DNA of 63,872 nt, filler included. It is 4 parts of 4 records of this genome, joined end to end, with 100 filler letters (N's around TTAATTAATTAA, not from the genome) between each part and the next. Parts side by side here need not be neighbours in the genome. Positions count along the whole stretch, not along the records: positions 55,669 to 63,872 come from SRR20825010_122; 3 more parts are not named here. One strand, written 5' to 3'. Below the pieces are notes generated by a model that saw nothing but the letters and a program-made list of their open reading frames with translations, made no database searches and was not told the DNA's origin. The position numbers were made by a program, and so were the translations under genes. Every line of letters begins with the position of its first letter. The stretch's first letter is position 1. Below are positions 8,592-63,872 of the stretch, in pieces.

Positions 8592-9956
8592 ATGGGATAT
8601 AAATATATAATCGCAGGCCTGCTAATTGGTTTTTGCGGAGTTGTAAGTGCTCAGGAGAGGTTATTGTCCAAAGATGCAGCTGTATCATTGGCCTTGGAAA
8701 ACAATTTTGGAATTAAGGTTGCCAAAAATCAGGTGGCCATTGCGGATAATAATGCGGGTATCCTCAACTCTGGTTACTTGCCTTCCCTTACGGGTACAGC
8801 TGGTGCCACGTATAACGAATTGAACAGTAATACGGAGTACCCTGGTCAATTTGAATCCAATGGGAGCCCCAGGCCAGATTTGGAGATCAATGATGCTGAA
8901 TCACAATCCTACAATGCCGCTCTTCGTTTAGACTATACGCTGTTTGATGGTATGGGCAGACTCTATAATTTTAAGCGATTAAAAGAGCAGTATCAATTAT
9001 CAGAATTACAAGCTAGGGAAACCATAGAAAATACTATTCTCCAATTATTTAGTGTGTATTATGAAATTGCCAGGCTCACCGAAAACGAGAATGTTCTAAG
9101 GCAGGCCTTGGAAATTTCCAAAGACCGGATCAAAAGGGCGGAATATTCCTTTGAATATGGACAGAATACAAAATTGGATATCCTTAATGCCCAGGTAGAT
9201 GTTACCAATGATAGTATTAGTTTAATGAACGTTCAGCAGAACTTGGCCAATGCAAAAAGGGATTTAAATGTGGTTCTCGATCAAAATCTCAATGAAATAT
9301 TCGTAGTGGATACCTTGGTGAGTTTTATTCCTAAATTACAGTTGGAGGATTATATTGCCCAATCGAAAGAAAACAATGTGGCCATACTTCAAACAGAGCG
9401 CAATATGGCCATAAACGAGTATGATATTAAGGTCAACAGATCTGGATATCTGCCTACTTTGGGGCTAAGCGGTAGCTATGGGTGGAATTTGAACCAAAGT
9501 GCTGCCACCTCATTTCTTCCGGGACAAATTATACCTGGAAGCAATAGGAACAGTTTAAATTTTGCATTGGGGGCCAGTCTTACATGGAATTTGTTCGATG
9601 GTGGCGGTACAACCGTAAGGGTTAAAAATGCCAAAATAGCCTATGAAAATCAGGAAATATTTAAGGAACAGGTAATACTTGAAGTGGATAGGGATATTTT
9701 AAATGCCTTGGGGATCTATGAGAACAGGTTACAGATATTTAAAATCCAAGAACAGAACGTAGTGACCAACCAAAATAATTTTGAGCGGTCCAAGGAGCAA
9801 TTTCAATTGGGACGTATAACATCCATAGAATTTAGGCAGGCACAAATAAACTTGCTCAACGCCCAGACCAATAAGAATTTGGCCAAATACGATGCCAAGT
9901 TGGCCGAATTACAGCTGTTACAATTAACAGGACAGTTGTTATCGGTAGAATTTTAA
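8592..9956 (+). CDS. TolC-family outer membrane factor
   Basis: Signal peptide; ALENN; two OEP halves (GYLPSL / GYLPTL, LFDG); TAA-ATG junction with the RND gene. Confidence 0.92.
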   Translation: MGYKYIIAGLLIGFCGVVSAQERLLSKDAAVSLALENNFGIKVAKNQVAIADNNAGILNSGYLPSLTGTAGATYNELNSNTEYPGQFESNGSPRPDLEINDAESQSYNAALRLDYTLFDGMGRLYNFKRLKEQYQLSELQARETIENTILQLFSVYYEIARLTENENVLRQALEISKDRIKRAEYSFEYGQNTKLDILNAQVDVTNDSISLMNVQQNLANAKRDLNVVLDQNLNEIFVVDTLVSFIPKLQLEDYIAQSKENNVAILQTERNMAINEYDIKVNRSGYLPTLGLSGSYGWNLNQSAATSFLPGQIIPGSNRNSLNFALGASLTWNLFDGGGTTVRVKNAKIAYENQEIFKEQVILEVDRDILNALGIYENRLQIFKIQEQNVVTNQNNFERSKEQFQLGRITSIEFRQAQINLLNAQTNKNLAKYDAKLAELQLLQLTGQLLSVEF

Positions 9957-10033
9957 TCCAATTATATTCATTTCCAATTGGAGCAAAGCTCTCATTAATA
10001 GCTAGAAAGTTTAAGTAATTAAACTATTGATTC

Positions 10034-10216
10034 ATGTACGAACACTTCTTTCAGTGTCCCTATTGCTGGGAAGAAATATCCATGCTGTTGGATCCTTCCA
10101 TTTCCCGACAGACCTATGTGGAAGATTGTGAGGTTTGTTGTAATCCTATCTCGGTTACACCGGTTTTTGACGAGGGGGAGCTAATTGCATTTGAGGCTTT
10201 GGATATTGGCCAGTAA
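10034..10216 (+). CDS. CPXCG-motif cysteine-rich small protein
   Basis: QCPYCWE ... [12 protein letters not shown], the signature of this family. Confidence 0.88.
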
Positions 10217-10241
10217 TATGTTCGGCAGACCGATTTCCTTT

Positions 10242-10281
10242 AAAAAAAAGACAGTCTAAAAATGTTGGTTTTTAAACTGTC
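10242..10281 (-). terminator. Probable terminator of the M16 peptidase gene (between convergent genes)
   Basis: GACAGTCTAAAAA...TTTTTAAACTGTC imperfect stem with an A8 tract on + (T-tract on -). Confidence 0.6.
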
Positions 10282-10310
10282 CAATTAGAAGCAGGTAAAA
10301 TAGTTTATGC

Positions 10311-22357: not shown

Positions 22358-22457
22358 NNNNNNNNNNNNNNNNNNNNNNNNNNNNNNNNNNNNNNNNNNN
22401 NTTAATTAATTAANNNNNNNNNNNNNNNNNNNNNNNNNNNNNNNNNNNNNNNNNNNN
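22358..22457. other. Artificial contig spacer
   Basis: N44-TTAATTAATTAA-N44 (stops in all six frames); composition changes across it. Confidence 0.98.
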
Positions 22458-29895: not shown

Positions 29896-30279
29896 TTAAT
29901 TCTGAATTAGCTTCCTACTATTTGGTCTAAAATACCAAGAAATAATTGTTAATGCTACTAATAAAATAGGACCGAAAAGGGTGATAATTTCATCTCCAAC
30001 TATTAAATGTGAAATGGCAGCCCCCGTCATTGCAAAAAAGAATCCAGCATAAGCCCATTCTTTTAGTAACGGAAGTTTAGGGAGTAAAACTGCTATAGTT
30101 CCTAAAATTTTCCAAACACCAAGAATGGTTAGTAAATAGGTAGGAAAACCTAATGCGTTAATGACTTCAACTTCTTCTTCCAGCTTTATTAACTGTACAA
30201 TCCCTGTGGATACCATTCCTAAAGCAAGCCAAATCGTGGCGATCCAATAGATTATTTTGTTGCGTTTTGTTGCGCCCAT
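29896..30279 (-). CDS. DoxX-like membrane protein
   Basis: Four TM helices; LGFPTY; LKEWAYAGFFF; SHL. Confidence 0.88.
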   Translation of the reverse strand: MGATKRNKIIYWIATIWLALGMVSTGIVQLIKLEEEVEVINALGFPTYLLTILGVWKILGTIAVLLPKLPLLKEWAYAGFFFAMTGAAISHLIVGDEIITLFGPILLVALTIISWYFRPNSRKLIQN

Positions 30280-30281
30280 AA

Positions 30282-30752
30282 TTACTTATTTAAATTATTT
30301 ATAATATCTTCTAATCGCTGATGCGCCATATCAAGACCAATAGCAAAAGGTTTCTTTAATAACTCGTTTCTAATTTCAACCGATTTAAAAATGATATGCA
30401 TTGTTAATTTGCTTGTATCATTTGTAATGGTTTTAAAATTCAAAAATTCGAGTTGTGGGGGAAAAGAAAACACATCCATTTCAAACGTTCTAACAATCAT
30501 TTCATTGGGTATAAACGTGTGAAATGTACCCTTACCGCTAAACATAAGATCTCCTTTAGGACTTCGTGTTTCAAAATGATACTTCCCATATTCCTTAAAC
30601 TCAAAGTGCACTAACTTGGTTCCCATCCATTTTTCAAACAATACTTTATCTTTATAAGCTGTAAAAAGAGATTCCACAGGCAAATCAAACTCCCTTGTTA
30701 TAAGTAATTCCTGTTTCCCCTCTTCCGCTGTAATTTTTGTTTTCTGTTCCAT
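30282..30752 (-). CDS. SRPBCC/AHSA1 domain protein
   Basis: ITREFDLPVESLFTAY...KWMG; IVRTFE; follows the ArsR gene. Confidence 0.85.
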   Translation of the reverse strand: MEQKTKITAEEGKQELLITREFDLPVESLFTAYKDKVLFEKWMGTKLVHFEFKEYGKYHFETRSPKGDLMFSGKGTFHTFIPNEMIVRTFEMDVFSFPPQLEFLNFKTITNDTSKLTMHIIFKSVEIRNELLKKPFAIGLDMAHQRLEDIINNLNK

Positions 30753-30799
30753 TGTTTATTTTGTTTTGATTGATGCTTTTTACTCACTGATTGTTCATT

Positions 30800-31129
30800 T
30801 TATTCTTTGCCTTCGTGAATCTTTGATTTCATAACAGCTTCCAAGGTATTAAAGCGGTCGTCCCACATTTTCCTAAAAGGCTCAATAAAATCAGCTATTT
30901 GTTTCATCCCATCGGGATTTAATTGGTAATAAATCTCTCTCCCCTTTTGTTCTTGTTCCAATAATTCACATTCGGTAAGAATTTGAATGTGCTTGGAAAT
31001 GGTTTGCCTAGAATAGTTAAAGTTTTCTGCAATTGCACTTGGTGTCATAGCACTTGCTGCAACCAATGTAACTATTGTTCTCCTTGTTGGGTCGGCTATG
31101 GCTTGAAAAACATCCCTTCTTAATTTCAT
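30800..31129 (-). CDS. ArsR/SmtB family transcriptional regulator
   Basis: [35 protein letters not shown] at 31129. Confidence 0.92.
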
Positions 31130-31131
31130 AA

Positions 31132-31175
31132 TGCAGTTATTTGACTGCAAATATAAGTGCAGTTATTTAGTTGCG
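31132..31175 (-). promoter_or_regulatory. Tandem palindromic operators flanking a TATATTTG -7 promoter box
   Basis: TGCAGTTATTTGACTGCA (31132-31149) and TGCAGTTATTTAGTTGCG (31158-31175) directly upstream of the ArsR ATG. Confidence 0.75.
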
Positions 31176-31288
31176 CAATATTTTAAAAGGAAAAGTACTT
31201 TCTAAATTATGTTTTGAGGTACGAGCGAACGAAAAGAAACTACGGTAGGCAAATAGATGTACGGTAAATAATAGTCTTTATCATCTTA

Positions 31289-31537
31289 CTAAATTATAAG
31301 TTCTATTTTAATATTGTTTAATTTTCCAAAGTTGAGAACTCCTAATATGTCAATAGAGTTATTACTTTCAATCCTTAATACTTTATCACAATCTTCTAAA
31401 TCGAAATTGATTTGGTAATCGGAATATAACTGATTAAGATCAGACACTATTTGGTTTGCCAATTGTTGATTGTTTACGCTAGTTTTGAAAATCTCAACTA
31501 TGGCTTGTGGTGTCTTTATAGGTTCATTAACTTTCAT
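31289..31537 (-). CDS. Conserved small Bacteroidota protein (FKT...NFDLEDCDKVLR)
   Basis: 82 aa; recognisable motif of an uncharacterised family. Confidence 0.7.
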   Translation of the reverse strand: MKVNEPIKTPQAIVEIFKTSVNNQQLANQIVSDLNQLYSDYQINFDLEDCDKVLRIESNNSIDILGVLNFGKLNNIKIELII

Positions 31538-31599
31538 TTTCTTCAGGTCTCATAATTATAAAAGCATCTTGTTTTTATAATGATTACTTTGGAAATGAT

Positions 31600-31977
31600 T
31601 TATACTTCCATACAATACGAGGTTATGCTTTTTATTTTTTCTCCTTTTGCACTTTGAAAGACATAAAAATCTGAAAACGCATATTTTTTTCCGTTTACCA
31701 TTGTCATCCATCCATTTGCTGCACCTTCTTTACCGTGAGATAAGATTTGGTCTAATTTCAATTCAGATGCTTTTACGGCTTGCATTTCTTCTAATTCTTT
31801 TACAAAATTTTCCTTTCCTTCAATTTTTTTATCCCCAATAACATTCCATACTATGTCATCTGTTACATTTTTAGTTAAAAAGGCAACATTTCCTTCAGCA
31901 AAAGCAATATTATATTGTTTTAAAAATTCCATTTTAGGTGAGTTCCCACAGTTTGGGCTTGATACTATTTTAGTCAT
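31600..31977 (-). CDS. SnoaL-like / NTF2 family protein
   Basis: NCGNSPK; VTDDIVWNVIG...GKE; HGKEGAANG. Confidence 0.8.
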   Translation of the reverse strand: MTKIVSSPNCGNSPKMEFLKQYNIAFAEGNVAFLTKNVTDDIVWNVIGDKKIEGKENFVKELEEMQAVKASELKLDQILSHGKEGAANGWMTMVNGKKYAFSDFYVFQSAKGEKIKSITSYCMEV

Positions 31978-31994
31978 TTTTATCGCTTTTAACC

Positions 31995-32411
31995 TTACAT
32001 ATTCTCATTATACAATAAGTTAAATTTATGTCCATCTGGGTCGGTAAAAACACAAACATAAAAGCCATTATCATCATAAAAAGCTTTTCTGTCTTTATTA
32101 GAATCGAATAAAATTTCACCTCCTGCCCTGTATATTTCAGTTACACAATGGTTGTATTCTTCTTTGCTTTCTACAGCCATAGAAAACATTACTTCATTAC
32201 CTTTTTTTAAATCTGCAGATTTGCTTTCCAGACTCGACTCAAACTTTTCTTTTTTGAAAAAGTGAATCACAAAATTATCAAGACCAAAAAAGAAGCTTAC
32301 CAAATTATTTGATGGGCTTCCATTTAACTGAAAACCTAAAGTTTGATAAAACACTTTAGTTTGTTCAATACTTTCTACACCAAGGTTTGCCCAAATTTGT
32401 TTTGTTTTCAT
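31995..32411 (-). CDS. VOC (glyoxalase-like) family protein
   Basis: IWANLGV...FYQTLGF; FTDPDGHKFN. Confidence 0.85.
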   Translation of the reverse strand: MKTKQIWANLGVESIEQTKVFYQTLGFQLNGSPSNNLVSFFFGLDNFVIHFFKKEKFESSLESKSADLKKGNEVMFSMAVESKEEYNHCVTEIYRAGGEILFDSNKDRKAFYDDNGFYVCVFTDPDGHKFNLLYNENM

Positions 32412-32495
32412 ATTATCTTATTTGTATAAACCATTAGCTACATCCACGTCCTGAATCTGCTAATCTTTTCTCCTCAAGGTGTTTAAGAAAAAAAA

Positions 32496-32894
32496 TTACT
32501 CCAAATTCAGTTGCCAAGAAACCCCAAATCTATCCTCTACAAAAGCAAATTGTTTACTAAACCCATAGCTATCCAAAGGCATTTTTACATCCCCATTTTC
32601 TGATAGTTTTGCATAAAGATGTTCAATTTCCTCTTTTGTGTTACATTCCACCCAACTTGAAACTGCAGGAGTAAAACTCCATTCGTGTTTAATAAAACTG
32701 TCGCTACATATAAACGGCGTTCCATTGAGTTCAAAAATTGCTTTTACAATTGTTCCTTCCAATCCCGGGCCATCTTTACCGTAACGCTGTACATTAATTA
32801 CTTTGGAATTATCGAACAGTTCTACATAAAAATTCATTGCTTCTTCAGCGTTGTTTCCCTGAAATGTTAGAAAAGTGGTGATTTGCTGTTTCAT
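32496..32894 (-). CDS. VOC family protein (PhnB / 3-demethylubiquinone-9 methyltransferase-like)
   Basis: FLTFQGNNAEEAMNFY; FTPAVS; EDRFGVSWQL. Confidence 0.88.
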   Translation of the reverse strand: MKQQITTFLTFQGNNAEEAMNFYVELFDNSKVINVQRYGKDGPGLEGTIVKAIFELNGTPFICSDSFIKHEWSFTPAVSSWVECNTKEEIEHLYAKLSENGDVKMPLDSYGFSKQFAFVEDRFGVSWQLNLE

Positions 32895-32915
32895 AGGTTT
32901 GTTTTAAACATAGGT

Positions 32916-33311
32916 TTAATTTTCGCAATACGTTTTTAATCGCAACAAAAACATCGCCCAATTATAATTACACCAACCGTAAAATTCGGTGCGTTTTTTC
33001 CAATTATAATGTTTTAACCTTAACGTTGTGGTATTGTTTTTTTCAGTCAGCTCAAAAGACACTTTGGTTCCAATCCACTCTTTATCAGAAGCCGTACATT
33101 CCCACACAATTTTGTTGTTTTCTACAAGCTCAATAATTTTAAACTTTGTGATATACCCTTCGTCAAAATCAAATTCATTAATAAAACCAACTTCAGGTTT
33201 CACTTTTAGTTTTTTTGTCCACACTTGGCCTAATCCTTCTTCTGAAGTTAGTGTTTTATAAACCCTTGCTTTAGGTGCTTTTATGTAATTAATATGTTCT
33301 ATGCTTTCCAT
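32916..33311 (-). CDS. SRPBCC domain protein
   Basis: IKAPKARVYKTL...VWT; EWIGTKVSF; WAMFLLRLKTYCE. Confidence 0.85.
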   Translation of the reverse strand: MESIEHINYIKAPKARVYKTLTSEEGLGQVWTKKLKVKPEVGFINEFDFDEGYITKFKIIELVENNKIVWECTASDKEWIGTKVSFELTEKNNTTTLRLKHYNWKKRTEFYGWCNYNWAMFLLRLKTYCEN

Positions 33312-33321
33312 ATTTATCTAT

Positions 33322-33705
33322 TTAATTCATTGAATGAAATCCAATAGAATTTCCTTCGGTATCCTTGATAATGGAAACAAATCCGTGTTCTCCAATGGCC
33401 ATTTTGGGTTGTATAATTTCAGCTCCATTTTCAACAGCTCTATTTTCTAATACTTTACAATCCTCACAACCAAAATAAACGAGACTTCCATTAGTAGAAG
33501 GTTTTACTGCTTCCATTTTTACCAAAGCACCAGCTGCACCATAATGTTCCATATCGTTCGGGAAGCCCTTCATCTGAACAGATGGATTTGTTGGATCGCT
33601 CATAGCCTCCATTGAAATTTGAAGTACTTTTTCGTAAAACTTTGCAGCTCTATCCATATCATTTACGTATATCTCGAACCACACTGAAGGATTAAATTTT
33701 TTCAT
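33322..33705 (-). CDS. VOC family protein
   Basis: WFEIYVNDMDRAAKFY; DTEGNSIGFHS. Confidence 0.88.
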   Translation of the reverse strand: MKKFNPSVWFEIYVNDMDRAAKFYEKVLQISMEAMSDPTNPSVQMKGFPNDMEHYGAAGALVKMEAVKPSTNGSLVYFGCEDCKVLENRAVENGAEIIQPKMAIGEHGFVSIIKDTEGNSIGFHSMN

Positions 33706-33768
33706 CCTTTGATTTTTTTAATTGATAGTATAACAAAAATGAAAAAAGGAGATCAAAAAAAACTTGTC

Positions 33769-34362
33769 CTATGGCAAGTTTTCTGCTTTAGACATCACTT
33801 CTTTTCTTATCCTACTCAAAGACGTGTCCGTAATTCCTAAATATGTAGCAATGTATTTTAAAGGTACTTCTTTAATAATTTCTGATTTTTCTTGTACCAA
33901 GTTTAAATATTTTTGCGAAGCACTCTGAGTGTGCATTGTAACGGCACGATGCTTTGCCATAAAAAGCTGGTGAGACATCCAAGTGCGACCCCATTCTGTA
34001 AAACCATCTATAGTGCTATACAAATTTTGAAAATCGTTAAACTCAATTTTATAGACTTCACAATCCGTTAAAGCTTGAATGGTTTCTTTTGAAGGAATAC
34101 GAAGAAATAAAGAAGCTACTTCAATTAAAATATCATTAGGGCTAAAAAAGTCAGTTGTAATTTCATTTCCTTTATAATCAATAACATACGATCGGAATAA
34201 ACCTTTTTTTATAAGATAATATTCGTTGCTTATTTTTCCTTCACTGAGAATGGTATCATTTTTAAGAAACTCAACTTTTGTATGGGCATCAATAATGCTT
34301 GTATAGTCTTCCTTTTGAATGTTGGGGTGGTTGTATGTTTTTTCAAAGAAATCAGTTTTCAT
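33769..34362 (-). CDS. Crp/Fnr family cNMP-binding regulator
   Basis: LSEGKIS...GLFRSY; PLKYIATYLGITDTSLSRIR. Confidence 0.9.
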   Translation of the reverse strand: MKTDFFEKTYNHPNIQKEDYTSIIDAHTKVEFLKNDTILSEGKISNEYYLIKKGLFRSYVIDYKGNEITTDFFSPNDILIEVASLFLRIPSKETIQALTDCEVYKIEFNDFQNLYSTIDGFTEWGRTWMSHQLFMAKHRAVTMHTQSASQKYLNLVQEKSEIIKEVPLKYIATYLGITDTSLSRIRKEVMSKAENLP

Positions 34363-34412: not shown

Positions 34413-34512
34413 NNNNNNNNNNNNNNNNNNNNNNNNNNNNNNNNNNNNNNNNNNNNTTAATTAATTAANNNNNNNNNNNNNNNNNNNNNNNNNNNNNNNN
34501 NNNNNNNNNNNN
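34413..34512. other. Artificial contig spacer
   Basis: N44-TTAATTAATTAA-N44; abrupt change from AT-rich to GC-rich sequence. Confidence 0.98.
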
Positions 34513-55568: not shown

Positions 55569-55668
55569 NNNNNNNNNNNNNNNNNNNNNNNNNNNNNNNN
55601 NNNNNNNNNNNNTTAATTAATTAANNNNNNNNNNNNNNNNNNNNNNNNNNNNNNNNNNNNNNNNNNNN
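55569..55668. other. Artificial contig spacer
   Basis: N44-TTAATTAATTAA-N44. Confidence 0.98.
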
Positions 55669-56304
55669 AGTACCTTTTACCGTACCTGATACTTTTGACA
55701 CCCCGATTCTTCGTTTGTAACGCACTGGTACTTCGATATATGACATTTTTTTTCTCAAAATTTTCAATTGCATTTCCACTGTCCAGCCATAAGTGGTGTC
55801 CTGCATTCTTAATTCTTTGAGCTTTTCATATTTTATCGCCCTAAAAGGTCCTAGATCCGTAAATTTTGACCTAAAAAACAATCGCATTAAAAATGTGGCC
55901 AATTGGTTCCCAAAAACCTGCTGTGGGGTCATGGAACCAGGTTCGCGAAGTGATTTTTTTCGCGCTCCCACCACAAAATCGATGTCATTTTCCAAAATTG
56001 GGGCGACAATCTTATCCAATTCCTCTGGATAATCTGAATAATCTCCGTCGATAAATACGATGATGTCGGGTGTTTTAGATCGTTCGGATATGTAATTTAA
56101 TCCTCTTAAACAGGCGAACCCATAGCCCTTGCGGTTTTCCGTGATTACAGTGGCGCCAGCTTTTTCTGCATTGGCTACGGTATCGTCTTCGGAACCGTTG
56201 TCCACGACCACAATTTCGGACACATGGTCGGGAATTTCCGAGACCACCAAACCAATGGAATCTCCTTCGTTGATCGCTGGGATGATGACCTTGATATCCG
56301 CCAT
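55669..56304 (-). CDS. Glycosyltransferase family 2 (DPM-synthase-like), 3' end truncated
   Basis: IIPAINE, VVDNGS, FIDGD, TDLGPFRAI, RIGVSK. Confidence 0.92.
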
Positions 56305-56396
56305 TGGTCAGATGTTGTTTTGGTTAGTGTTAGAGCTCGCCAAAACTAAAATTTTCCAAGGATATTTGATTGAAAATCTTCAAAAAGAAGGGAAAT

Positions 56397-58007
56397 CTAT
56401 TTTTTGTTCACCAATGTCATCAGGTCCACATCATTGCCCAACAGCACTTGATTGCTATCGATTCTACCTTCCAACGGACCGTTTTCCAGTTTAAGGACGC
56501 CCCGTGGACAAACTGCCGAGCAAATTCCACATCCCACACAGCTCGACCGAACGATGTTCTCTCCTTTCTGGGCGTAGGCCCGCACATCGATGCCCATTTC
56601 GCAGTATACCGAACAGTTGCCACAAGAAATACATTGCCCACCATTGGTGGTAATTCTGAACCTGGAAAACAATTTCTGCTGAAACCCTAAAATGGCGGCC
56701 ATGGGGCAACCGAAGCGGCACCACACCCTGCTCCCAAAGATGGGGTAGAACCCTGTTCCGATGACTCCAGAAAAAATGCTTCCGATCAAGAAAGAGTACG
56801 ATTTACGAAGTGTTTCGGATTTAAAAAGAAAAATTTGTCCGTCCCCGCTAAAAAAATGAAACCCGATCAGCGCTATAATGATCACAAAATAACCGATGGC
56901 TCCGTACTGCGCATCTTTCTGGAGTTGATTTCTTTTAAAAATCATGGCCCAACCGAACACCAAGGTCAGTAAAACGGCCACCCCGATTAAAAAAGAGCTC
57001 TTGGTCAGCCAATATTTACTGGTATCCGTTCCCAAGTAGGAATAAATGACCGCGGTGGTCATCAAAGTCACAAAAACTACGACACTGTGCACCACCCAGC
57101 GTTCTACTTTCCATGCAAATGTAGATTTATCGCTCAACTGCCTGAATGAATCCCCAGCGGTTTCTGCCAATCCACCACACCCGCAGACCCAAGAGCAGTA
57201 CCATCTTTTACCATATTTGTAGGTAAGGATGGGAGTTATCACAAAAATGGAGAGGATGCCAAAGATCAATAGGGCAAAACCGATTTCCCCCGAACTTAAA
57301 AACGCTTTAATGCGATACCCTTCAAAATTATAATAGTTGAGCGGCCAAATATTTTTGAGGTCGTAATAAGGCAAACTGCCCCCGTCCAAAATTTTATCGC
57401 CGTTCAAACGGGCCATCAATTCTGGGATGATGAACGCAAAAGCGGTTTGAAAGAACATGACGCTCCAAGTGCGCAACCTTTCGTATCGGTTATGGCGATA
57501 TTTCCAAAGGAACTTGATGCCAAAGGCCAAAATGGCCACCGTATAAAGTGTGCCGTAAACAAACCACTGACTGGCGGGGTTGCCGCTCAAAAATTTACTG
57601 AGCGGGTCAAAAAGCCCAATAACCCCTTTATTGTCGCCATCGTTCACCAGACCGAGATATTCAGGATAAAAATAGAGTACAATGTAGAAACCTGTCAAGG
57701 ACAAACCTGCCACCCATCCCCATAAACCGCGACTGGAAATCGACTTGAACCAAACACCATCATTTTTGATCCCAGGGATTTTTTTGGAATAGGCATCCCA
57801 GGAAAACCAAACAATCCCGACGGTGATAGCCAAAAGAGACAAGGTCAACCATAAGGTCCTATTCGGAAAATTGACATTGAAAACGGCCAAAAGCAGAATG
57901 CCCAGCCCAGATAATCCCAAAAAGACAGCGAGTTTTTGACTTATGCTCAAACTTTTTGGTGGTTCGCCTGTCAGGGCCATGCTTTTATGATAGGTTTGAC
58001 TGTTCAT
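56397..58007 (-). CDS. Polytopic membrane ferredoxin (NapH/MauN-like 4Fe-4S binding protein)
   Basis: Multiple TMs; CSWVCGCG, CRFGCP; CISCGNCSVYC and CVGCGICSAVCP. Confidence 0.88.
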   Translation of the reverse strand: MNSQTYHKSMALTGEPPKSLSISQKLAVFLGLSGLGILLLAVFNVNFPNRTLWLTLSLLAITVGIVWFSWDAYSKKIPGIKNDGVWFKSISSRGLWGWVAGLSLTGFYIVLYFYPEYLGLVNDGDNKGVIGLFDPLSKFLSGNPASQWFVYGTLYTVAILAFGIKFLWKYRHNRYERLRTWSVMFFQTAFAFIIPELMARLNGDKILDGGSLPYYDLKNIWPLNYYNFEGYRIKAFLSSGEIGFALLIFGILSIFVITPILTYKYGKRWYCSWVCGCGGLAETAGDSFRQLSDKSTFAWKVERWVVHSVVVFVTLMTTAVIYSYLGTDTSKYWLTKSSFLIGVAVLLTLVFGWAMIFKRNQLQKDAQYGAIGYFVIIIALIGFHFFSGDGQIFLFKSETLRKSYSFLIGSIFSGVIGTGFYPIFGSRVWCRFGCPMAAILGFQQKLFSRFRITTNGGQCISCGNCSVYCEMGIDVRAYAQKGENIVRSSCVGCGICSAVCPRGVLKLENGPLEGRIDSNQVLLGNDVDLMTLVNKK

Positions 58008-58114
58008 TGTTTGTTGTTTCTTTGTTCTGATATTTTCGAATGGGACATGACCTCTCCAGTTTTTCGTACAATTTAAACTCTTTAATAAACCATTAACCCT
58101 GAGCCATCAACCAA

Positions 58115-59464
58115 TCAATTCAGTTGGAAGATGCGTTTTAGGTTTTTCTTTTTCGGGTTGATGGATTTTCCGAAATTGGAATTGTATTTCGACACGATCT
58201 GAGGTTCAAAACTTTTATAAAACTCAGGGTCGAAATTGGCGTCTCTAAGATGTTCCATCACATAATCAATGGTTCTTTTTTCACTGAGCCATCTATCAAA
58301 AACTTCGTGCCGCAAACGAATGCCAAAGGTGTTGATGCCCAACACAGTTTCAGAATCCTTATCAAACGCAATGGTGATACAAAGTTTTTCTTTGGAATGT
58401 CTCCAATGGAAATGGGCCTCGTTTTCTTTTTTCTTTCTCTCTGGGAACACCCAACCATAGGTTTGGTACTCAATGTCCAGAAACTTGGCGGAGTTGAACC
58501 AGTGTCCGGGGTTGTATTCCATTCGATTGCCACAAATGGTCTGGGCCAGGGTTTCGCCCATCATACGGCCCGTGTACCAAACAGCTTCAATGGGGCGTCG
58601 ATTTCCAATGGCTTCGTGCTGTTCCGCACAATCGCCAATGGCGTATACGTGTTCAACATTTGTCTCCAAAAACCGATTTACCTTTACTCCTCTACCTAAT
58701 TCTATATCCGAGTCTTTCAAAAAATCAATATTTGGGGTAACACCTGTGGTCAATCCCACCAAGTCACATTCAATTTCTTCTCCAGTTTCGGCCAGTGTCA
58801 CGGATTTTACCCTTCCATTTTCATCAGGATTGATTTGCTTGAGCGAAGCACCTAACCGCAAATCAATATGGTGCTCGTGGATATGTTCGTTGATCATTTC
58901 TGATTCGCCAGAAGGCAAAACACTGTTCCAAAAGCTGTTTTCACGAACCAAAAAAGTCACTGGGATATCACGAGTACGTAGCATTTCGGCCAATTCGATG
59001 CCAATAAGCCCACCACCAATGATCACTGCCCGTTTGCAAACCTTGTTATTGGGTGCGTTGTCTTCCAGCAGTTCCAGGTCTTGTTTGGAATAAAGCCCTT
59101 GAACGCCATCCAAATCCTGTCCGGGCCAACCGAATTTATTGGGTTTGGATCCTGTGGCAATAATCAATTTATCGTAGTCGAGGTCTGGAGCACCATCAAG
59201 ATGAAGCAATTTTTCTTGGGTGTTGACCTTGGTCACGTACGCTTGTACCAAATCTATTCGGTTCTTTTTCCAGAAGTGGTTCTCGTAGGGTTGGGTATGC
59301 TCAAACCTCATGTGGCCCATGTACACATACATCAAAGCTGTTCGGGAGAAAAAGTACTCGGATTCTGCGGAAACAATGGTGATTTTTTTGTCGGAAAGCT
59401 TTCGAATGTGCCTTGCAGCGGTTACACCTGCAATTCCATTTCCAATAATGACAATGTGCTCCAT
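58115..59464 (-). CDS. NAD(P)/FAD-dependent oxidoreductase
   Basis: IIGNGIAG, LIIATGS, IIGGGLIGIE, VYAIGDC. Confidence 0.92.
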   Translation of the reverse strand: MEHIVIIGNGIAGVTAARHIRKLSDKKITIVSAESEYFFSRTALMYVYMGHMRFEHTQPYENHFWKKNRIDLVQAYVTKVNTQEKLLHLDGAPDLDYDKLIIATGSKPNKFGWPGQDLDGVQGLYSKQDLELLEDNAPNNKVCKRAVIIGGGLIGIELAEMLRTRDIPVTFLVRENSFWNSVLPSGESEMINEHIHEHHIDLRLGASLKQINPDENGRVKSVTLAETGEEIECDLVGLTTGVTPNIDFLKDSDIELGRGVKVNRFLETNVEHVYAIGDCAEQHEAIGNRRPIEAVWYTGRMMGETLAQTICGNRMEYNPGHWFNSAKFLDIEYQTYGWVFPERKKKENEAHFHWRHSKEKLCITIAFDKDSETVLGINTFGIRLRHEVFDRWLSEKRTIDYVMEHLRDANFDPEFYKSFEPQIVSKYNSNFGKSINPKKKNLKRIFQLN

Positions 59465-60706: not shown

Positions 60707-61639
60707 ATGAAACTAAAATTATCCCTTCTTTTTTGGGTATGGGCCTGTACATTTATGTTGGGACAGGAAAGTACCTATTACAATGTGGTTGCCGAGCAGG
60801 GCGACGGTATTTTTTCGCTGCTGCGCAAACAAGGTCTTGACCCTGCCAAACACTACGGGGAGTTTTTGGAATTGAATTCTGATAAAATAACGGAAGGTAC
60901 TGCCCTCAAACTGGGTGAAGCGTACAGGGTTCCTTATGCGGATGATTCCTTAAAGAAAACTGGGGTAATGGTCGAGACGGTAAAAGACTCTGAAGCCCCT
61001 ATTTTTGATAAGGAACTGGCTGAAATGTCCCTTAAAAGTGATAAGCTGAAAGATGCTGTATACTATCTTATTGCTGAGAATATCTCTGGAACGGAGAATG
61101 GTTTTGTGAATGATGTTACACAACGTATTGCAGGAGAATTGATGTTGAATGGAGCCCATGTGTATGTCATGGGTGATGACTTGTTACGTGACTCTGAAGA
61201 CGAAGGAATTTCGGTAGACAATACTTTTGGGGACTATGTACAGGTCATCAATAAAAGATACATAAAGAATACTGGAAAATACCAACGGGTTTTGTTGATT
61301 CGGGCTGAAAATGTAATCGAGACTGGTAATATGGCAGTGGCTGTGTACCATTATGATAAAAGTGCCCAAGGCCAGCGTTTTGCAGAGAATATACAGAATG
61401 TGTTTAAGGAGAACAACGTTTCCAGTACTACCATTGATGAATCCAGTTTGGTTTTTGAGGACAAAAACAGCTTATATTTGGCTACAAACATTCTTCCCGC
61501 CATCAGTATAATGACGATAGAGAACACGAGTCGGACATCAAAAAGCAAGATATCACTCAAACCAAACAAAAAAGAATTTGCCGATCTAATTAGTAATGGC
61601 ATTATTAATGATTATGTTGATTTAGAATTTGAGAATTAA
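60707..61639 (+). CDS. LysM-like plus degenerate Amidase_3-fold protein
   Basis: Colinear with the downstream amidase (AEQGDGIFSLLR; LKDAVYYLI; NTGKYQR; LPA) but lacks its His/Glu residues. Confidence 0.75.
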   Translation: MKLKLSLLFWVWACTFMLGQESTYYNVVAEQGDGIFSLLRKQGLDPAKHYGEFLELNSDKITEGTALKLGEAYRVPYADDSLKKTGVMVETVKDSEAPIFDKELAEMSLKSDKLKDAVYYLIAENISGTENGFVNDVTQRIAGELMLNGAHVYVMGDDLLRDSEDEGISVDNTFGDYVQVINKRYIKNTGKYQRVLLIRAENVIETGNMAVAVYHYDKSAQGQRFAENIQNVFKENNVSSTTIDESSLVFEDKNSLYLATNILPAISIMTIENTSRTSKSKISLKPNKKEFADLISNGIINDYVDLEFEN

Positions 61640-62662
61640 ATGAGACTTAATTGGTTTACGCCATTGCTGGGCGTTTTGTTTATATTTCAGTCCACCTTAT
61701 GGGGCCAAGAGGATTTTCCCAAAGTCATGGCGGAAGAAGGTGATGGTATTTATTCGTTACTGCGAAGACACGGGGTGAGCCCAACAAAACACTACAACAA
61801 CTTTGTGAAACTAAATGCAGAGGATTTGGGCGAGGATGAATCCTTGATTTTGGGCAGGCATTATATGCTGCCCGATACTTTGGAAACAAAAACGGTTGAA
61901 ACGGTGGAAGAGGGAATCACGTACTCCATTTTTGGGGAGGATTTTAAAAAAGTAGATAAGGCAAGTTCGCGCTTAAAGAACACCGTGTATTATTTGATTT
62001 CTGGCCATGGTGGCCCCGACCCGGGAGCCATAGAAAAACATAATGGAAAATTGATAGCTGAAGATGAATATGCCTACGATGTGACCTTGCGATTGGCCCG
62101 CGAGCTTATATCCCACGGGGCGGAAGTACATATCATTGTCCAAGACGGAAACGATGGCATTAGGGACAAAAGAATCCTTGAACTGGATACGGACGAAACT
62201 GTTCAATCACAGCCTATCCCGCTAGACCAATTGGAGCGTTTGAAGCAACGTACCAAAGCTGTCAATGATCTATATACAAAGAATACGGGTAAATATCAAC
62301 GTCTTTTGGTCACCCATGTGGATAGTAGGGGCGAGGGTACCAATATTGATGTATTTTTCTACCATCACGAAAAGAGTACCAACGGAAAAAGGCTTGCGGA
62401 AAGCATTCACCAGACATTTTTGAGGAAGTACAAAAAATTCCAGCCCAACCGATTGTACAACGGTACCTTTATGGAAAGAAGCAGTTTGTACGTAGTTAAA
62501 AACACGCTTCCGGCCATGGCTTACATTGAAATAGGCAACATCAGAAACAAAAAGGACCAACGTAGAATCCTGGACCCCGATAACCGACAGGCATTGGCCA
62601 AATGGATTTCCGAGGGGATTTTATTGGATTATGAATCTCCTAAAGAAGCTATTTCAAAATAA
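61640..62662 (+). CDS. N-acetylmuramoyl-L-alanine amidase (Amidase_3) with a LysM-like N-terminus
   Basis: SGHGGPDPG, EDE, THVDS and YIEIGN metal/catalytic motifs. Confidence 0.9.
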   Translation: MRLNWFTPLLGVLFIFQSTLWGQEDFPKVMAEEGDGIYSLLRRHGVSPTKHYNNFVKLNAEDLGEDESLILGRHYMLPDTLETKTVETVEEGITYSIFGEDFKKVDKASSRLKNTVYYLISGHGGPDPGAIEKHNGKLIAEDEYAYDVTLRLARELISHGAEVHIIVQDGNDGIRDKRILELDTDETVQSQPIPLDQLERLKQRTKAVNDLYTKNTGKYQRLLVTHVDSRGEGTNIDVFFYHHEKSTNGKRLAESIHQTFLRKYKKFQPNRLYNGTFMERSSLYVVKNTLPAMAYIEIGNIRNKKDQRRILDPDNRQALAKWISEGILLDYESPKEAISK

Positions 62663-62663
62663 A

Positions 62664-63629
62664 CTAGCAACACCCGCCACCGTTGTAGTGGTATGTACTT
62701 TCACTTATAAAGATTTCATCCGAAGCACTAGCCAAGGCAGCAGCTGTTTTGTCACATACCGCCAAAGGTTGGTTTTGTAGTAGTACATGTCCCTTCTTAT
62801 CATCAAAATATGCCTCGTCTCCAAAATAAATAGCTGTTTTTCCCGTAAAAACGCAGGGACCATCGGCTGGCATCGGGTCTTTTATGGCGGCTATTTCGAT
62901 GGATTCAATATGAATGAGCTCTTTGGTGGGGTAATGGTTCGGCGATAACACCCTGTACGATCGTTTGCCTCTGATTTCTATGGTGCCAAAACCGGCATCC
63001 GTCAACACTTTTACATAATCTTTCAAGGGAATGCTACCGCTCAGACATTGTGCCCTCAAGCGGTCATCGTTGCGCAGCTCGCCGCTCATGGGCTGCTCGC
63101 AAATGGGATCGCTCATCACCAATCTTCCGTGAGGCTTCAGTACGCGGTACATTTCGGAAACGGCTTTTTTAAGGTCATCTATCTTAAAAATATTGAAAAG
63201 GCAATTCTGTGCTGCCACGTCGATACTTTCATCCTCCACGGGAAGGTTCAATGCATCACCTTTCACCAAATTCACGTATTCGCTCTTGAACCAATCGTTT
63301 TCTTCTTCGGCTATTTTGAAGTTCTTTCGGGAAGCCTCCAACATCTCATCTACGGAATCCACCCCGGTTACACCACCCATCTGTCTGGAAAAATAAGAGA
63401 ATTGCAGCAGTTCCATTCCGCCTCCTACACCAACATATAGAATTTTGGGATTGTTGACCAAATCCTGTGCGGAAACGGTGCTTCCACAGCCATAGTTCAT
63501 CTCTTGCATGATCTTGGGAATGGAAAGCCCGGGGAACTGCCAAATGGGGTTGGTGGTGCAGCAAAGCCCCACATCGGGTGTTAGGGCCGCTTGTTTGTAT
63601 AGGTCTTGGGTGGCGTCTAAATAGCTCAT
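62664..63629 (-). CDS. arsM: Arsenite methyltransferase, cyanobacterial/arsenosugar-associated ArsM type
   Basis: GLCC, MNYGCG, LYVGVGGG, AQNCLFNIF, RAQCLSG, AVCDKT and terminal GGGCC, as recalled for Synechocystis ArsM; ATG 63629 overlaps the PNP stop. Confidence 0.85.
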   Translation of the reverse strand: MSYLDATQDLYKQAALTPDVGLCCTTNPIWQFPGLSIPKIMQEMNYGCGSTVSAQDLVNNPKILYVGVGGGMELLQFSYFSRQMGGVTGVDSVDEMLEASRKNFKIAEEENDWFKSEYVNLVKGDALNLPVEDESIDVAAQNCLFNIFKIDDLKKAVSEMYRVLKPHGRLVMSDPICEQPMSGELRNDDRLRAQCLSGSIPLKDYVKVLTDAGFGTIEIRGKRSYRVLSPNHYPTKELIHIESIEIAAIKDPMPADGPCVFTGKTAIYFGDEAYFDDKKGHVLLQNQPLAVCDKTAAALASASDEIFISESTYHYNGGGCC

Positions 63630-63872
63630 AGTTCTTTGATTAGTTCTTTGAATAGTTTGATCATTTTGGGTTCCGTTTGCCCTGCAATCTTCAAAATTTC
63701 CTGTACTTCGACAGGTTGCAGGTTGTCGGGGTCGCATTCATCGGTCAATACCGATACCGCTACAATGGGTAGTCGTAAATGATTCGCAACAATTACCTCG
63801 GGGACGGTGCTCATTCCCACGGCGTCGGCACCCATGATCTTGAGCATTCGGTATTCTGCCTTGGTTTCCAGT
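63626..63872 (-). CDS. Purine nucleoside phosphorylase (trimeric PNP/MTAP family), 3' part only
   Basis: LETKAEY, GADAVGMSTVPE, SVLTD; runs off the window end. Confidence 0.9.
   Translation of the reverse strand, partial: LETKAEYRMLKIMGADAVGMSTVPEVIVANHLRLPIVAVSVLTDECDPDNLQPVEVQEILKIAGQTEPKMIKLFKELIKEL

What the first reader, a model, noticed from the sequence alone, without database searches (positions are those of the whole stretch)
62664..63872. ArsM coupled to an Asp-type nucleoside phosphorylase: possible de-adenylation step of arsenosugar biosynthesis
Seen: the PNP stop overlaps the arsM start (ATGA, 63626-63629), and the PNP reads SVLTD (Asp codon 63740-63742). Established: cyanobacterial ArsM and the radical SAM enzyme ArsS make 5'-deoxy-5'-dimethylarsinoyl-adenosine (DDMAA). 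In trimeric PNPs, Asn at this position selects 6-oxopurines, whereas Asp (MTAP, human N243D) favours adenine nucleosides. Inference: this PNP may convert DDMAA to dimethylarsinoyl-ribose-1-phosphate, a donor for arsenosugar or arsenolipid formation in a heterotrophic flavobacterium. Caveat: housekeeping Bacteroidota PNPs may also carry TD.
Basis: partly seen in the sequence, partly recalled or inferred. Interest (0 to 1): 0.8.

Follow-up and report, generated by a model that had tools for sequence, protein, structure and literature searches.

The report
Nucleoside phosphorylase inside arsenosugar gene cluster
A purine nucleoside phosphorylase gene is fused stop-to-start to an arsenic methyltransferase gene inside a conserved bacterial arsenic-sugar gene cluster, which makes it a strong, still untested candidate for the unknown enzyme that removes adenine from the pathway's intermediate.

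Summary
The window ends with the last 81 codons of a trimeric-type PNP. Its TGA overlaps the ATG of an ArsM that matches NCBI's arsenosugar-type model (564 bits, cut-off 400). The PNP reads SVLTD.

Across 80 Flavobacteriaceae arsM loci, 77 carry this PNP. The usual order is peroxidase-like > ArsS > rhodanese > TIGR04282 > PNP > ArsM > DUF547 > TIGR04283. TIGR04282, PNP and ArsM are the most constant members.

In proteobacterial plasmid clusters (Burkholderia, Cupriavidus, Acinetobacter) an MTAP-family phosphorylase stands beside TIGR04282 and TIGR04283 instead. This recurrence is the strongest support for a phosphorolysis step on an adenine nucleoside, most plausibly DDMAA.

The Asp argument alone is weak, because two of three housekeeping Bacteroidales PNPs also read TD. 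However, all 75 linked PNPs also replace the ribose-site His with Ile/Val and a Phe with Leu.

Against it: this window and its nearest relatives keep only TIGR04282-PNP-ArsM. No ArsS or TIGR04283 lies nearby, and no ArsS was found for the nearest named species. Three other ArsS clusters have no phosphorylase. Whether this is the cell's only PNP could not be tested, and no assay exists.

Verdict: partly supported, unpublished in the literature searched, and directly testable.

The parts
63626..63872 (-). C-terminal 81 codons plus stop of a trimeric (NP-I) purine nucleoside phosphorylase; the gene runs off the window end
   Evidence: PRK08202, E 6.8e-27, profile positions 195-273 of 274; closest solved structures are 4lna and 4m1e; 98.8% identical to the full-length 271-aa PNP of locus L001.
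62664..63629 (-). arsM, arsenosugar-type arsenite methyltransferase (321 aa)
   Evidence: NF038099 AsSugarArsM, 564.3 bits (cut-off 400), profile positions 1-321 of 321; homologues are named 'arsenosugar biosynthesis arsenite methyltransferase ArsM' in Muricauda/Flagellimonas.
63626..63629 (-). ATGA: the PNP stop TGA overlaps the arsM start ATG (translational coupling)
   Evidence: sequence. The same 4-base overlap occurs in 19 of 73 related loci.
63740..63742 (-). Asp codon at the base-specificity position (human PNP Asn243; numbering recalled)
   Evidence: Asp in 75 of 75 cluster-linked PNPs. Also Asp in 2 of 3 housekeeping Bacteroidales PNPs.
63704..63706 (-). Val codon at the position of the ribose-site His (NHEEV motif; human His257, numbering recalled)
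   Evidence: aligned to the His of 8swt and 8swu. Ile in 67 and Val in 8 of 75 linked PNPs. His in Prevotella, Phocaeicola, Listeria and E. coli XapA.
63866..63871 (-). Leu-Glu in place of the Phe-Glu of ordinary trimeric PNPs (human Phe200-Glu201; numbering recalled)
   Evidence: Leu in 75 of 75 and Glu in 75 of 75 linked PNPs. Phe or Tyr in the 5 housekeeping PNPs compared.

Best explanation
The PNP is the adenine-removing enzyme of an arsenosugar-type pathway.

Inferred steps: this PNP cleaves DDMAA with phosphate into adenine and 5-deoxy-5-dimethylarsinoyl-alpha-D-ribose-1-phosphate. The CofC-like TIGR04282 protein encoded just upstream activates that sugar phosphate with a nucleotide. The family-2 (inverting) glycosyltransferase TIGR04283 then passes it to an acceptor, giving a beta-riboside.

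Shown here: gene identities, gene order, translational coupling, residue pattern, purifying selection, and the recurrence of a phosphorylase in unrelated clusters. Not shown: any enzyme activity.

In this window's own lineage only TIGR04282-PNP-ArsM remain together. There the pathway may be split across the genome or incomplete.
For: 1. ArsM is the arsenosugar type.
2. By tblastn, 77 of 80 Flavobacteriaceae arsM loci hold the PNP. In 73 loci a PNP ORF lies upstream on the same strand, and in 66 it is the direct neighbour of arsM.
3. The neighbours are TIGR04169 peroxidase-like, ArsS (TIGR04167), a rhodanese, TIGR04282, DUF547 and TIGR04283.
4. TIGR04282 lies directly upstream of the PNP in 68 of 75 loci, mostly with overlapping stop and start.
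5. PNP (77 of 80 by tblastn; 75 by ORF cluster) and TIGR04282 (77 of 80) accompany ArsM more often than ArsS does (48 of 80).
6. The link survives rearrangement: in the two rearranged loci L061 (Polaribacter ponticola) and L070 (Polaribacter sp.), rhodanese-TIGR04282-PNP moved as a block to the other side of arsM.
7. On plasmids, an MTAP-family phosphorylase sits with TIGR04283 and TIGR04282. In Burkholderia glumae and B. thailandensis the order is MTAP > TIGR04283 > TIGR04282. In Cupriavidus it is TIGR04283 > TIGR04282 > MTAP. In Acinetobacter the MTAP lies two genes away.
8. All 75 linked PNPs have Asp at the Asn243 position, Leu for Phe200, and Ile/Val for the ribose-site His. The phosphate and ribose residues are kept. 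The five housekeeping PNPs compared lack the last two changes.
9. Asn to Asp turns a trimeric PNP towards adenosine (PMC5074518, passages read).
10. TIGR04282 matches DUF2064/CofC and PDB 3cgx, 'putative nucleotide-diphospho-sugar transferase'.
11. dN/dS is about 0.02 for both PNP and ArsM in this lineage.
Against: 1. No ArsS, TIGR04282 or TIGR04283 lies in the 63 kb of the window.
2. The nearest loci (L001, L002, L031) show only TIGR04282 > PNP > ArsM within 10 kb either side.
3. Two ArsS searches list no ArsS for Muricauda oceani, M. brasiliensis, Muricauda sp. HICW, Muricauda sp. NFXS6 or [Muricauda] lutisoli. ArsS from other genera with lower scores is listed. Cluster members could not be listed, so hidden members remain possible.
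4. TD also occurs in housekeeping Bacteroidales PNPs.
5. Glu at the Glu201 position is kept. The strongly adenosine-directed human enzyme carried Glu201Gln as well.
6. The ArsS clusters of Hymenobacter, Pseudanabaena and Thiodictyon have no phosphorylase nearby.
7. Other, unrelated neighbours are also fairly syntenic within the family: cluster 6 occurs in 54 of 80 loci. Adjacency inside one family is therefore weak on its own.
8. It could still be the cell's only PNP.
9. There is no biochemistry.
Confidence: 0.55

Rival explanations
1. Housekeeping purine salvage. This is the ordinary, perhaps only, PNP of these flavobacteria. It cleaves adenosine, inosine and guanosine, and sits beside arsM through inherited gene order without taking part in arsenic chemistry.
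For: The full-length orthologue passes the general PNP model (346.8 bits, cut-off 218) and even TIGR01700 (304.4 bits, cut-off 293.35). TD is found in housekeeping Bacteroidales PNPs that sit in housekeeping contexts such as lpxK-PNP-thiL. The gene stays under strong constraint in a lineage where ArsS is not nearby. Some unrelated neighbours are also conserved across the 80 loci.
Against: The PNP stays inside the cluster through rearrangements and is translationally coupled on both sides. Plasmid-borne clusters of Proteobacteria carry their own MTAP-family phosphorylase. The ribose-site His is lost in 75 of 75 linked PNPs.
Confidence: 0.2
2. By-product clearance. The phosphorylase removes inhibitory adenine nucleosides left by the SAM enzymes of the cluster: 5'-deoxyadenosine from abortive ArsS turnover, or methylthioadenosine-like compounds. 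It does not process the pathway intermediate.
For: MTAP-family enzymes take its place in proteobacterial clusters. Losing the His that lines the ribose site fits 5'-deoxy substrates. That MTAP enzymes accept 5'-deoxyadenosine is recalled, not taken from a call.
Against: The tightest partners are TIGR04282 and ArsM, not ArsS. PNP is present in 77 of 80 loci against 48 for ArsS, and it is kept where ArsS is not local. In Burkholderia the MTAP shares an operon with the two transferase-like genes, while ArsS lies about 6 kb away in another operon. ArsS puts the deoxyadenosyl group into its product.
Confidence: 0.15
3. Arsenate reduction by arsenolysis. The PNP uses arsenate instead of phosphate, and the unstable ribose-1-arsenate is reduced by thiols. 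This would supply arsenite to ArsM.
For: Mammalian PNP reduces arsenate in vitro with a dithiol (passages of PMC12608789). A PHO4-family phosphate transporter follows arsM in 8 of 80 loci and occurs in the Acinetobacter and Cupriavidus clusters.
Against: The same review says it is unknown whether the reaction occurs in vivo. This reading does not explain the altered ribose pocket or the coupling to TIGR04282.
Confidence: 0.05

Closest known systems
Trimeric purine nucleoside phosphorylase (NP-I family; PunA / human PNP type). Nearest solved structure: PDB 4lna.
   Same: Same fold family and profile. Phosphate- and ribose-binding residues are conserved in 75 of 75. 4lna matches the full-length orthologue at E 1.7e-89 and shares the EFH, QLET and TD.C.PD motifs and the aliphatic residue at the His position.
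   Different: It has Asp instead of Asn at the specificity position, Leu instead of Phe, and Ile/Val instead of the ribose-site His. It is encoded inside an arsenic gene cluster. No published function was found for 4lna or 4m1e. One search found only one paper, which used 4m1e as a modelling template.
S-methyl-5'-thioadenosine phosphorylase (MTAP / MtnP)
   Same: It belongs to the same superfamily. Both have Asp at the equivalent position and an aliphatic residue (Ala or Val) where PNP has His. MTAP genes occupy the corresponding place in the Burkholderia, Cupriavidus and Acinetobacter clusters.
   Different: The window's protein is not an MTAP by profile: TIGR01694 scores 97.8 bits against a cut-off of 274.85 for the full-length orthologue. 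It keeps the Glu that MTAPs replace with Ser.
ArsM/ArsS steps of cyanobacterial arsenosugar biosynthesis (Xue et al. 2019; Cheng et al. 2021)
   Same: The ArsM subfamily is the same, and ArsS is present in 48 of 80 related loci. ArsS makes DDMAA (review passages).
   Different: Those studies cover the steps up to DDMAA. A 2026 preprint still says only that the adenine 'can then be removed'. The Pseudanabaena plasmid cluster has no phosphorylase beside arsM and arsS. The 2019 paper itself is not held.
Asn-to-Asp variants of trimeric PNPs (human N243D; K. lactis N256D)
   Same: The same residue change occurs at the same position. The K. lactis variant prefers adenosine over inosine.
   Different: Those are engineered point mutants. 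Here the Asp is natural, invariant and accompanied by further pocket changes.

Membership tests
Trimeric PNP (NF006054 PRK08202 / TIGR01697) | Profile score above the curated cut-off | tested here: met
   The full-length orthologue L001:9189-10004 scores 346.8 bits (cut-off 218). The window's 81-aa fragment scores 94.6 bits, below the cut-off only because it is truncated.
Trimeric PNP (NF006054 PRK08202 / TIGR01697) | Phosphate- and ribose-site residues (GTG/GSG loop, Arg, His, Tyr, Asn-Ala, Met-Ser; human numbering recalled) | tested here: met
   Invariant in 75 of 75 linked PNPs at L001 positions 28-30, 80, 82, 84, 111-112 and 210-211.
Trimeric PNP, 6-oxopurine-specific subtype (TIGR01700) | Asn at the base-specificity position (human Asn243) | tested here: not met
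   Asp in the window and in 75 of 75 linked PNPs. The TIGR01700 score nevertheless just passes (304.4 bits against 293.35).
Trimeric PNP | Homotrimeric assembly | not tested
   Inferred only from similarity to solved trimeric-class PNPs.
MTAP (TIGR01694) | Profile score above the curated cut-off | tested here: not met
   97.8 bits against 274.85 for the full-length orthologue; 47.3 bits for the window fragment.
MTAP (TIGR01694) | Asp at the specificity position and a non-polar residue in place of the 5'-OH-binding His | tested here: met
   Asp in 75 of 75 and Ile/Val in 75 of 75. The three cluster-linked MTAPs have Asp and Ala/Val at the aligned columns.
Arsenosugar-type ArsM (NF038099) | Profile score above the curated cut-off, aligned end to end | tested here: met
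   564.3 bits against 400, profile positions 1-321 of 321.
Arsenosugar biosynthesis gene cluster (ArsS + ArsM + TIGR04282 + TIGR04283) | ArsS (TIGR04167) encoded with ArsM | tested here: not met
   None in the window. None within 10 kb in the nearest loci L001, L002 and L031. Present in 48 of 80 related loci. The rest of the source genome could not be searched.
Arsenosugar biosynthesis gene cluster (ArsS + ArsM + TIGR04282 + TIGR04283) | TIGR04282 and TIGR04283 genes present | tested here: inconclusive
   TIGR04282 lies directly upstream of the PNP in L001 with a 4-base overlap, but that position is beyond the window end. TIGR04283 is absent from the window: the GT2 at 55621-56304 scores 33.2 bits against 182. 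It is also absent from L001, L002 and L031.
DDMAA phosphorylase (proposed activity, no family yet) | Phosphorolysis of 5'-deoxy-5'-dimethylarsinoyl-adenosine | not testable with these tools
   Needs an enzyme assay.

The most novel reading that the evidence does not exclude
TIGR04282, the phosphorylase and TIGR04283 together encode the missing second half of arsenosugar biosynthesis. DDMAA is phosphorolysed to an arsenoribose-1-phosphate, activated as a nucleotide sugar, and transferred with inversion to give beta-arsenoribosides or arsenolipids. If so, marine heterotrophic Flavobacteriaceae and plasmid-bearing Proteobacteria, not only algae and cyanobacteria, make these compounds.
Probability: 0.35. 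Interest if true: 0.8.

Novelty: new variant of a known kind. Interest (0 to 1): 0.62.

Why it matters
Arsenosugars are the main arsenic compounds of marine algae and seafood. Only the steps up to DDMAA have enzymes assigned. A 2026 preprint still describes adenine removal without naming an enzyme.

This finding names a concrete candidate for that step and, through its operon partners, candidates for the two steps after it. All can be expressed and assayed with existing methods. It also points to abundant marine heterotrophs as possible producers, which would change how the marine arsenic cycle is drawn.

Two solved but uncharacterised structures (4lna, 4m1e) appear to belong to the same PNP subtype, so structural work could start at once.

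Tried and rejected
- **Window scan for partner genes.** All large ORFs were scanned for ArsS, TIGR04282 and TIGR04283 and none was found. The GT2 at 55621-56304 was considered as TIGR04283 and rejected (33.2 bits against 182).
- **Cross-phylum context.** Contexts from other phyla therefore came from the plasmid collection.
- **Rhodanese as an Acr2-type arsenate reductase.** Its conserved loop reads CS.G.RS, which is not the C-X5-R loop I recall for that type. I dropped the idea.
- **Window flavoprotein 58115-59464 as an orthologue of the FAD oxidoreductases in proteobacterial clusters.** Identity is only 22% (E 2e-4 and 2e-5), which is superfamily-level likeness.
- **Cluster member lists.** The listing of cluster members, meant to reveal species hidden inside ArsS clusters, is switched off.
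- **The protein-atlas search.** It returned only 'PNP, Bacteroidota'.
- **Literature.** The 2019 arsenosugar paper is not held. Searches were mostly noise. Searches found no paper linking a nucleoside phosphorylase or MTAP to arsenosugar synthesis. Most subscription journals are not covered.
- **Not done.**
  - A wide PNP phylogeny.
  - A search for a second PNP, DeoD or MtnN in the source genome.
  - A check of the gene context of 4lna and 4m1e.
  - The closed collections metagenome contigs and viral contigs were not searched.
Full report
**1. The observation**

On the minus strand the window ends with an open frame of 81 codons, LETKAEY...SVLTDECDP...KELIKEL. Its TGA (63628-63626) overlaps the ATG (63629-63627) of the next gene, and the Asp codon of SVLTD is 63742-63740.

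The fragment matches the C-terminal end of the trimeric PNP model PRK08202 (E 6.8e-27, profile positions 195-273 of 274). It matches MTAP models far more weakly.

The downstream gene (62664-63629, 321 aa) matches NF038099, 'arsenosugar biosynthesis arsenite methyltransferase ArsM', end to end at 564.3 bits against a cut-off of 400. Its closest relatives (87-100% identity) are so named in Muricauda, Flagellimonas and Allomuricauda.

**2. Surroundings in the window**

I scanned 38 further large ORFs plus the 9 nearest ones against NCBIfam. None is ArsS (TIGR04167), TIGR04282 or TIGR04283. The family-2 glycosyltransferase at 55621-56304 reaches only 33.2 bits on TIGR04283 (cut-off 182).

Downstream of arsM lie two convergent amidase-like paralogues, a glycosidase-like gene, a flavoprotein, a membrane 4Fe-4S protein and that glycosyltransferase. 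Everything upstream of the PNP fragment lies beyond the window end.

**3. Related loci**

A search of 1.84 billion cluster representatives showed that the arsenosugar-type ArsM family is small at the 50% identity level. Of the seven full-length forms I scanned, four pass the NF038099 cut-off.

The best 80 were kept, and all are Flavobacteriaceae at 77-95% identity. The source genome itself is not among them. L001, [Muricauda] lutisoli, is the closest.

tblastn with the window's PNP fragment found exactly one PNP in 77 of the 80 loci. In two of these, L061 (Polaribacter ponticola) and L070 (Polaribacter sp.), it lies about 3.6 kb downstream of arsM. In the rest it lies just upstream on the same strand.

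Three loci have no PNP. In two (L060, L065) the contig ends 72 and 241 bases after arsM, and they show the arrangement seen in L061 and L070, where the PNP lies downstream. Only L072 clearly lacks it within 10 kb.

**4. The cluster**

I called ORFs in all 80 loci, clustered them and annotated representatives. The recurrent order is:

TIGR04169 peroxidase-like > ArsS (TIGR04167, 443.8 bits) > rhodanese (NF045521) > TIGR04282 (DUF2064/CofC-like) > PNP > ArsM > sometimes a fatty-acid hydroxylase > DUF547 > TIGR04283 (family-2 glycosyltransferase).

| Gene | Loci holding it by ORF cluster, of 80 |
|---|---|
| ArsM | 80 |
| TIGR04282 | 77 |
| PNP | 75 (77 by tblastn) |
| DUF547 | 67 |
| TIGR04283 | 60 |
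| Rhodanese | 59 |
| ArsS | 48 |
| Peroxidase-like | 46 |
| Fatty-acid hydroxylase | 25 |
| PHO4 transporter | 8 |

Some loci are cut by contig ends, so these counts are lower bounds.

- TIGR04282 is the direct upstream neighbour of the PNP in 68 of 75 loci, mostly with overlapping stop and start. In the other 7 a T9SS-tail protein is inserted between them.
- The PNP is the direct upstream neighbour of ArsM in 66 loci.
- The 4-base overlap seen in the window occurs in 19 of 73 loci.
- In L001 all three genes overlap by 4 bases: 8533-9192, 9189-10004, 10001-10966.

A caution applies. One unrelated neighbour (cluster 6) is also present in 54 of 80 loci. Gene order is thus fairly stable in this family, and adjacency within it is not independent evidence 80 times over.

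**5. Evidence from other phyla**

tblastn with a flavobacterial ArsS against the plasmid collection found 54 records: 49 Burkholderia, and one each of Hymenobacter, Pseudanabaena, Cupriavidus, Acinetobacter and Candidatus Thiodictyon.

| Lineage | Cluster content near ArsS | Phosphorylase nearby? |
|---|---|---|
| B. glumae, B. thailandensis | Operon: hypothetical > S-methyl-5'-thioadenosine phosphorylase > TIGR04283 > TIGR04282 > FAD oxidoreductase, about 6 kb from ArsS | Yes (MTAP) |
| Cupriavidus sp. KK10 (unannotated record; ORFs and NCBIfam run by me) | One tight same-strand array: phosphate/sulfate-permease-like, ArsM-like methyltransferase, peroxidase-related, ArsS, FAD oxidoreductase, a 242-aa protein, TIGR04283, TIGR04282, MTAP (276.2 bits on TIGR01694), a second radical SAM | Yes (MTAP) |
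| Acinetobacter portensis | ArsS, TVP38/FAD oxidoreductase, DUF547, TIGR04283, TIGR04282, methyltransferase, phosphate transporter, then a convergent mtnP | Yes (MTAP) |
| Hymenobacter | DUF547, TIGR04283, epimerase, SDR, ArsS | No |
| Pseudanabaena | Mercuric-reductase-like, ArsM, TVP38, ArsS | No |
| Ca. Thiodictyon | GT2, sterol desaturase family, ArsS, TIGR04282 | No |

A tblastn with the Burkholderia MTAP found 75 plasmid records. They again include 49 Burkholderia, Acinetobacter and Cupriavidus, the last with MTAP 3.6 kb from ArsS.

So a trimeric-class nucleoside phosphorylase stands with TIGR04282 and TIGR04283 in four lineages. The gene orders differ and two subfamilies are involved: PNP type in Flavobacteriaceae, MTAP type in Proteobacteria. 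In three other lineages it is absent from the neighbourhood. I regard the recurrence, with a paralogue taking the same place, as the strongest support for a pathway role.

**6. The residue argument**

In an alignment of the 75 linked PNPs, the window fragment and three cluster-linked MTAPs:

- Asp is invariant (75 of 75) in the motif L-T-D-E-C-D-P.
- The Glu equivalent to human Glu201 is invariant.
- The preceding residue is Leu in 75 of 75.
- The position aligned with the His of the NHEEV motif is Ile (67) or Val (8).
- Phosphate- and ribose-site residues are invariant.

Human numbering, and the contact of His257 with the 5'-hydroxyl, are recalled. The K. lactis paper lists the equivalent His among ribose-site residues.

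Housekeeping PNPs from Prevotella nigrescens (between lpxK and a thiamine-phosphate kinase gene) and Phocaeicola massiliensis read TD. Parabacteroides, Listeria and E. coli XapA read TN.

| Feature | 75 linked PNPs | 5 housekeeping PNPs |
|---|---|---|
| Specificity position (human Asn243) | Asp 75/75 | Asp in 2, Asn in 3 |
| Human Phe200 position | Leu 75/75 | Phe or Tyr in all 5 |
| Ribose-site His (human His257) | Ile 67, Val 8 | His in 4 of 5; Parabacteroides aligns ambiguously |
| Residue before the phosphate-loop His | Phe 75/75 | Gly in all 5 |

The linked PNPs thus form a recognisable subtype with a less polar 5' pocket, as in MTAP (Ala/Val at that column in the three cluster MTAPs). 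That fits a 5'-substituted adenosine.

The solved structures 4lna and 4m1e share the subtype signature. 8swt resembles the Phocaeicola enzyme, and 8swu is an Asn/His type. 4m1e is from Planctomyces limnophilus. That 4lna is from Spirosoma linguale is recalled.

Asn to Asp shifts trimeric PNPs to adenosine. K. lactis N256D prefers adenosine over inosine, and human N243D is quoted at 5000-fold (passages). The strongly adenosine-directed human enzyme also carried Glu201Gln, which the present proteins lack.

**7. This window's own lineage**

The nearest loci (L001, L002, L031) show only TIGR04282 > PNP > ArsM, followed by the same convergent amidase-like genes as in the window. No ArsS, rhodanese, DUF547 or TIGR04283 lies within 10 kb either side.

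The wider Muricauda-like group (L003-L025) keeps rhodanese > TIGR04282 > PNP > ArsM > DUF547 > TIGR04283 but has no local ArsS.

ArsS can lie elsewhere in a genome:

- Muriicola marianensis ArsS is reported on a contig of 2,389,011 bases, the length of the contig that carries L025.
- Five ArsM/ArsS pairs share longest-contig lengths: 1,056,177; 1,015,693; 3,283,220; 3,642,629; 3,715,669.

However, two ArsS searches, one with a Croceivirga ArsS and one with a profile of Flagellimonas ArsS, name only the following in this genus group: Allomuricauda sp. ARW1Y1, an 'unclassified Allomuricauda' entry, a Flagellimonas sp., one F. marinaquae assembly and F. allohymeniacidonis.

They name none of M. 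oceani, M. brasiliensis, Muricauda sp. HICW, Muricauda sp. NFXS6 or M. lutisoli, whose ArsM is 95-98% identical to the window's. Lower-scoring ArsS from other genera is listed.

The three genes are not decaying:

- dN/dS is 0.02 for ArsM (window against L001, L002).
- dN/dS is 0.007-0.023 for the PNP fragment.
- dN/dS is 0.021-0.023 for the full PNP among L001, L002 and L031. Synonymous sites are near saturation.
- The relative protein rates of PNP and TIGR04282 against ArsM are not raised in this lineage (3 pairs).

**8. Mechanism**

Established: ArsS adenosylates dimethylarsenite to DDMAA (review passages; citation of Cheng et al. 2021 seen). Nucleoside phosphorylases give alpha-D-ribose-1-phosphate (abstract listed).

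Inferred: the PNP phosphorolyses DDMAA. TIGR04282 matches DUF2064 and CofC, PDB 3cgx 'putative nucleotide-diphospho-sugar transferase', and, in the Cupriavidus copy, F420 CofC at E 8.7e-14. It would make a nucleotide-activated arsenoribose. TIGR04283 is a family-2 glycosyltransferase; that this family inverts configuration is established knowledge, not tested here. It would transfer the sugar to give a beta-riboside. That natural arsenosugars have the beta configuration is recalled.

The fatty-acid hydroxylase, the Mpo1-like protein and DUF547 hint at a lipid acceptor. The PHO4 transporter may bring in arsenate. Neither point was tested.

**9. Rivals**

I weigh three rivals:

- Housekeeping PNP: 0.2.
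- Clearance of 5'-deoxyadenosine-like by-products: 0.15.
- Arsenate reduction by arsenolysis, known for mammalian PNP in vitro: 0.05.

**10. Novelty**

All the gene families are known, and NCBI already names ArsS, ArsM, TIGR04282, TIGR04283 and the peroxidase-like protein as arsenosugar-associated. The PNP is not so named.

Seven literature searches found no paper tying a nucleoside phosphorylase or MTAP to arsenosugar synthesis. A 2026 preprint says only that the adenine 'can then be removed'. The key 2019 paper and most subscription journals could not be read, so prior mention cannot be excluded.

I class the finding as a new variant of a known kind. My confidence in the proposed role is moderate, and lower for this particular genome.

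Noticed in passing
window 22358-22457, 34413-34512, 55569-55668: There are three pairs of 44-base N runs, each pair separated by 12 bases. They look like masked elements. The third pair cuts the start of the glycosyltransferase ORF at 55621-56304.
   Followed up: no
window 60707-61639 and 61640-62662 (+): Two adjacent paralogous amidase-like genes (weak CwlD match for the second) run convergently into arsM. Their stop (62660-62662) and the arsM stop (62664-62666) are one base apart, which leaves no room for a terminator. The pair recurs in L001, L002, L017, L020 and L031.
   Followed up: partly
window 55621-59464 (-); loci L001-L079: A block of flavoprotein disulfide-reductase-like (58115-59464), membrane NapH-like 4Fe-4S protein (56397-58007) and family-2 glycosyltransferases lies within 10 kb of arsM in about 40 of 80 loci. 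FAD oxidoreductases also sit in the proteobacterial and Pseudanabaena clusters, but they share only 22% identity with the window's flavoprotein.
   Followed up: partly
protein P0122 (673 aa); loci such as L037:14116-14847: In P0122 a calcineurin-like metallophosphoesterase domain is fused to the N-terminus of an arsenosugar-type ArsM. A separate metallophosphatase gene lies near TIGR04283 in 13 of 80 loci, on the opposite strand. This hints at a phosphatase step.
   Followed up: partly
L029:11123-12226 and 7 other loci; L084, L086: A PHO4-family phosphate transporter directly follows arsM in 8 of 80 flavobacterial loci. It also occurs in the Acinetobacter and Cupriavidus clusters. It may serve arsenate uptake.
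   Followed up: no
PDB 4lna and 4m1e: Two structural-genomics PNP structures share the subtype signature of the cluster-linked PNPs: EFH, QLET, TD.C.PD, and Leu at the His position. Whether their genes lie in arsenosugar clusters was not checkable here.
   Followed up: partly
L085 and L087 (Burkholderia plasmids), L086 (Cupriavidus): These clusters carry a second radical SAM protein, TrsS-like at 107 bits and below its cut-off, together with DUF547, a YiiX-like cysteine hydrolase and thioredoxin/CcdA genes. The product there may differ from cyanobacterial arsenosugars.
   Followed up: no
window 29896-34362 (-): A run of eight small same-strand ORFs (125-197 aa) has no NCBIfam match at E 1e-25.
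   Followed up: no
loci L047, L053, L055, L056, L061, L070, L077: A roughly 240-aa protein with a T9SS C-terminal sorting domain is inserted between TIGR04282 and the PNP in 7 loci.
   Followed up: no
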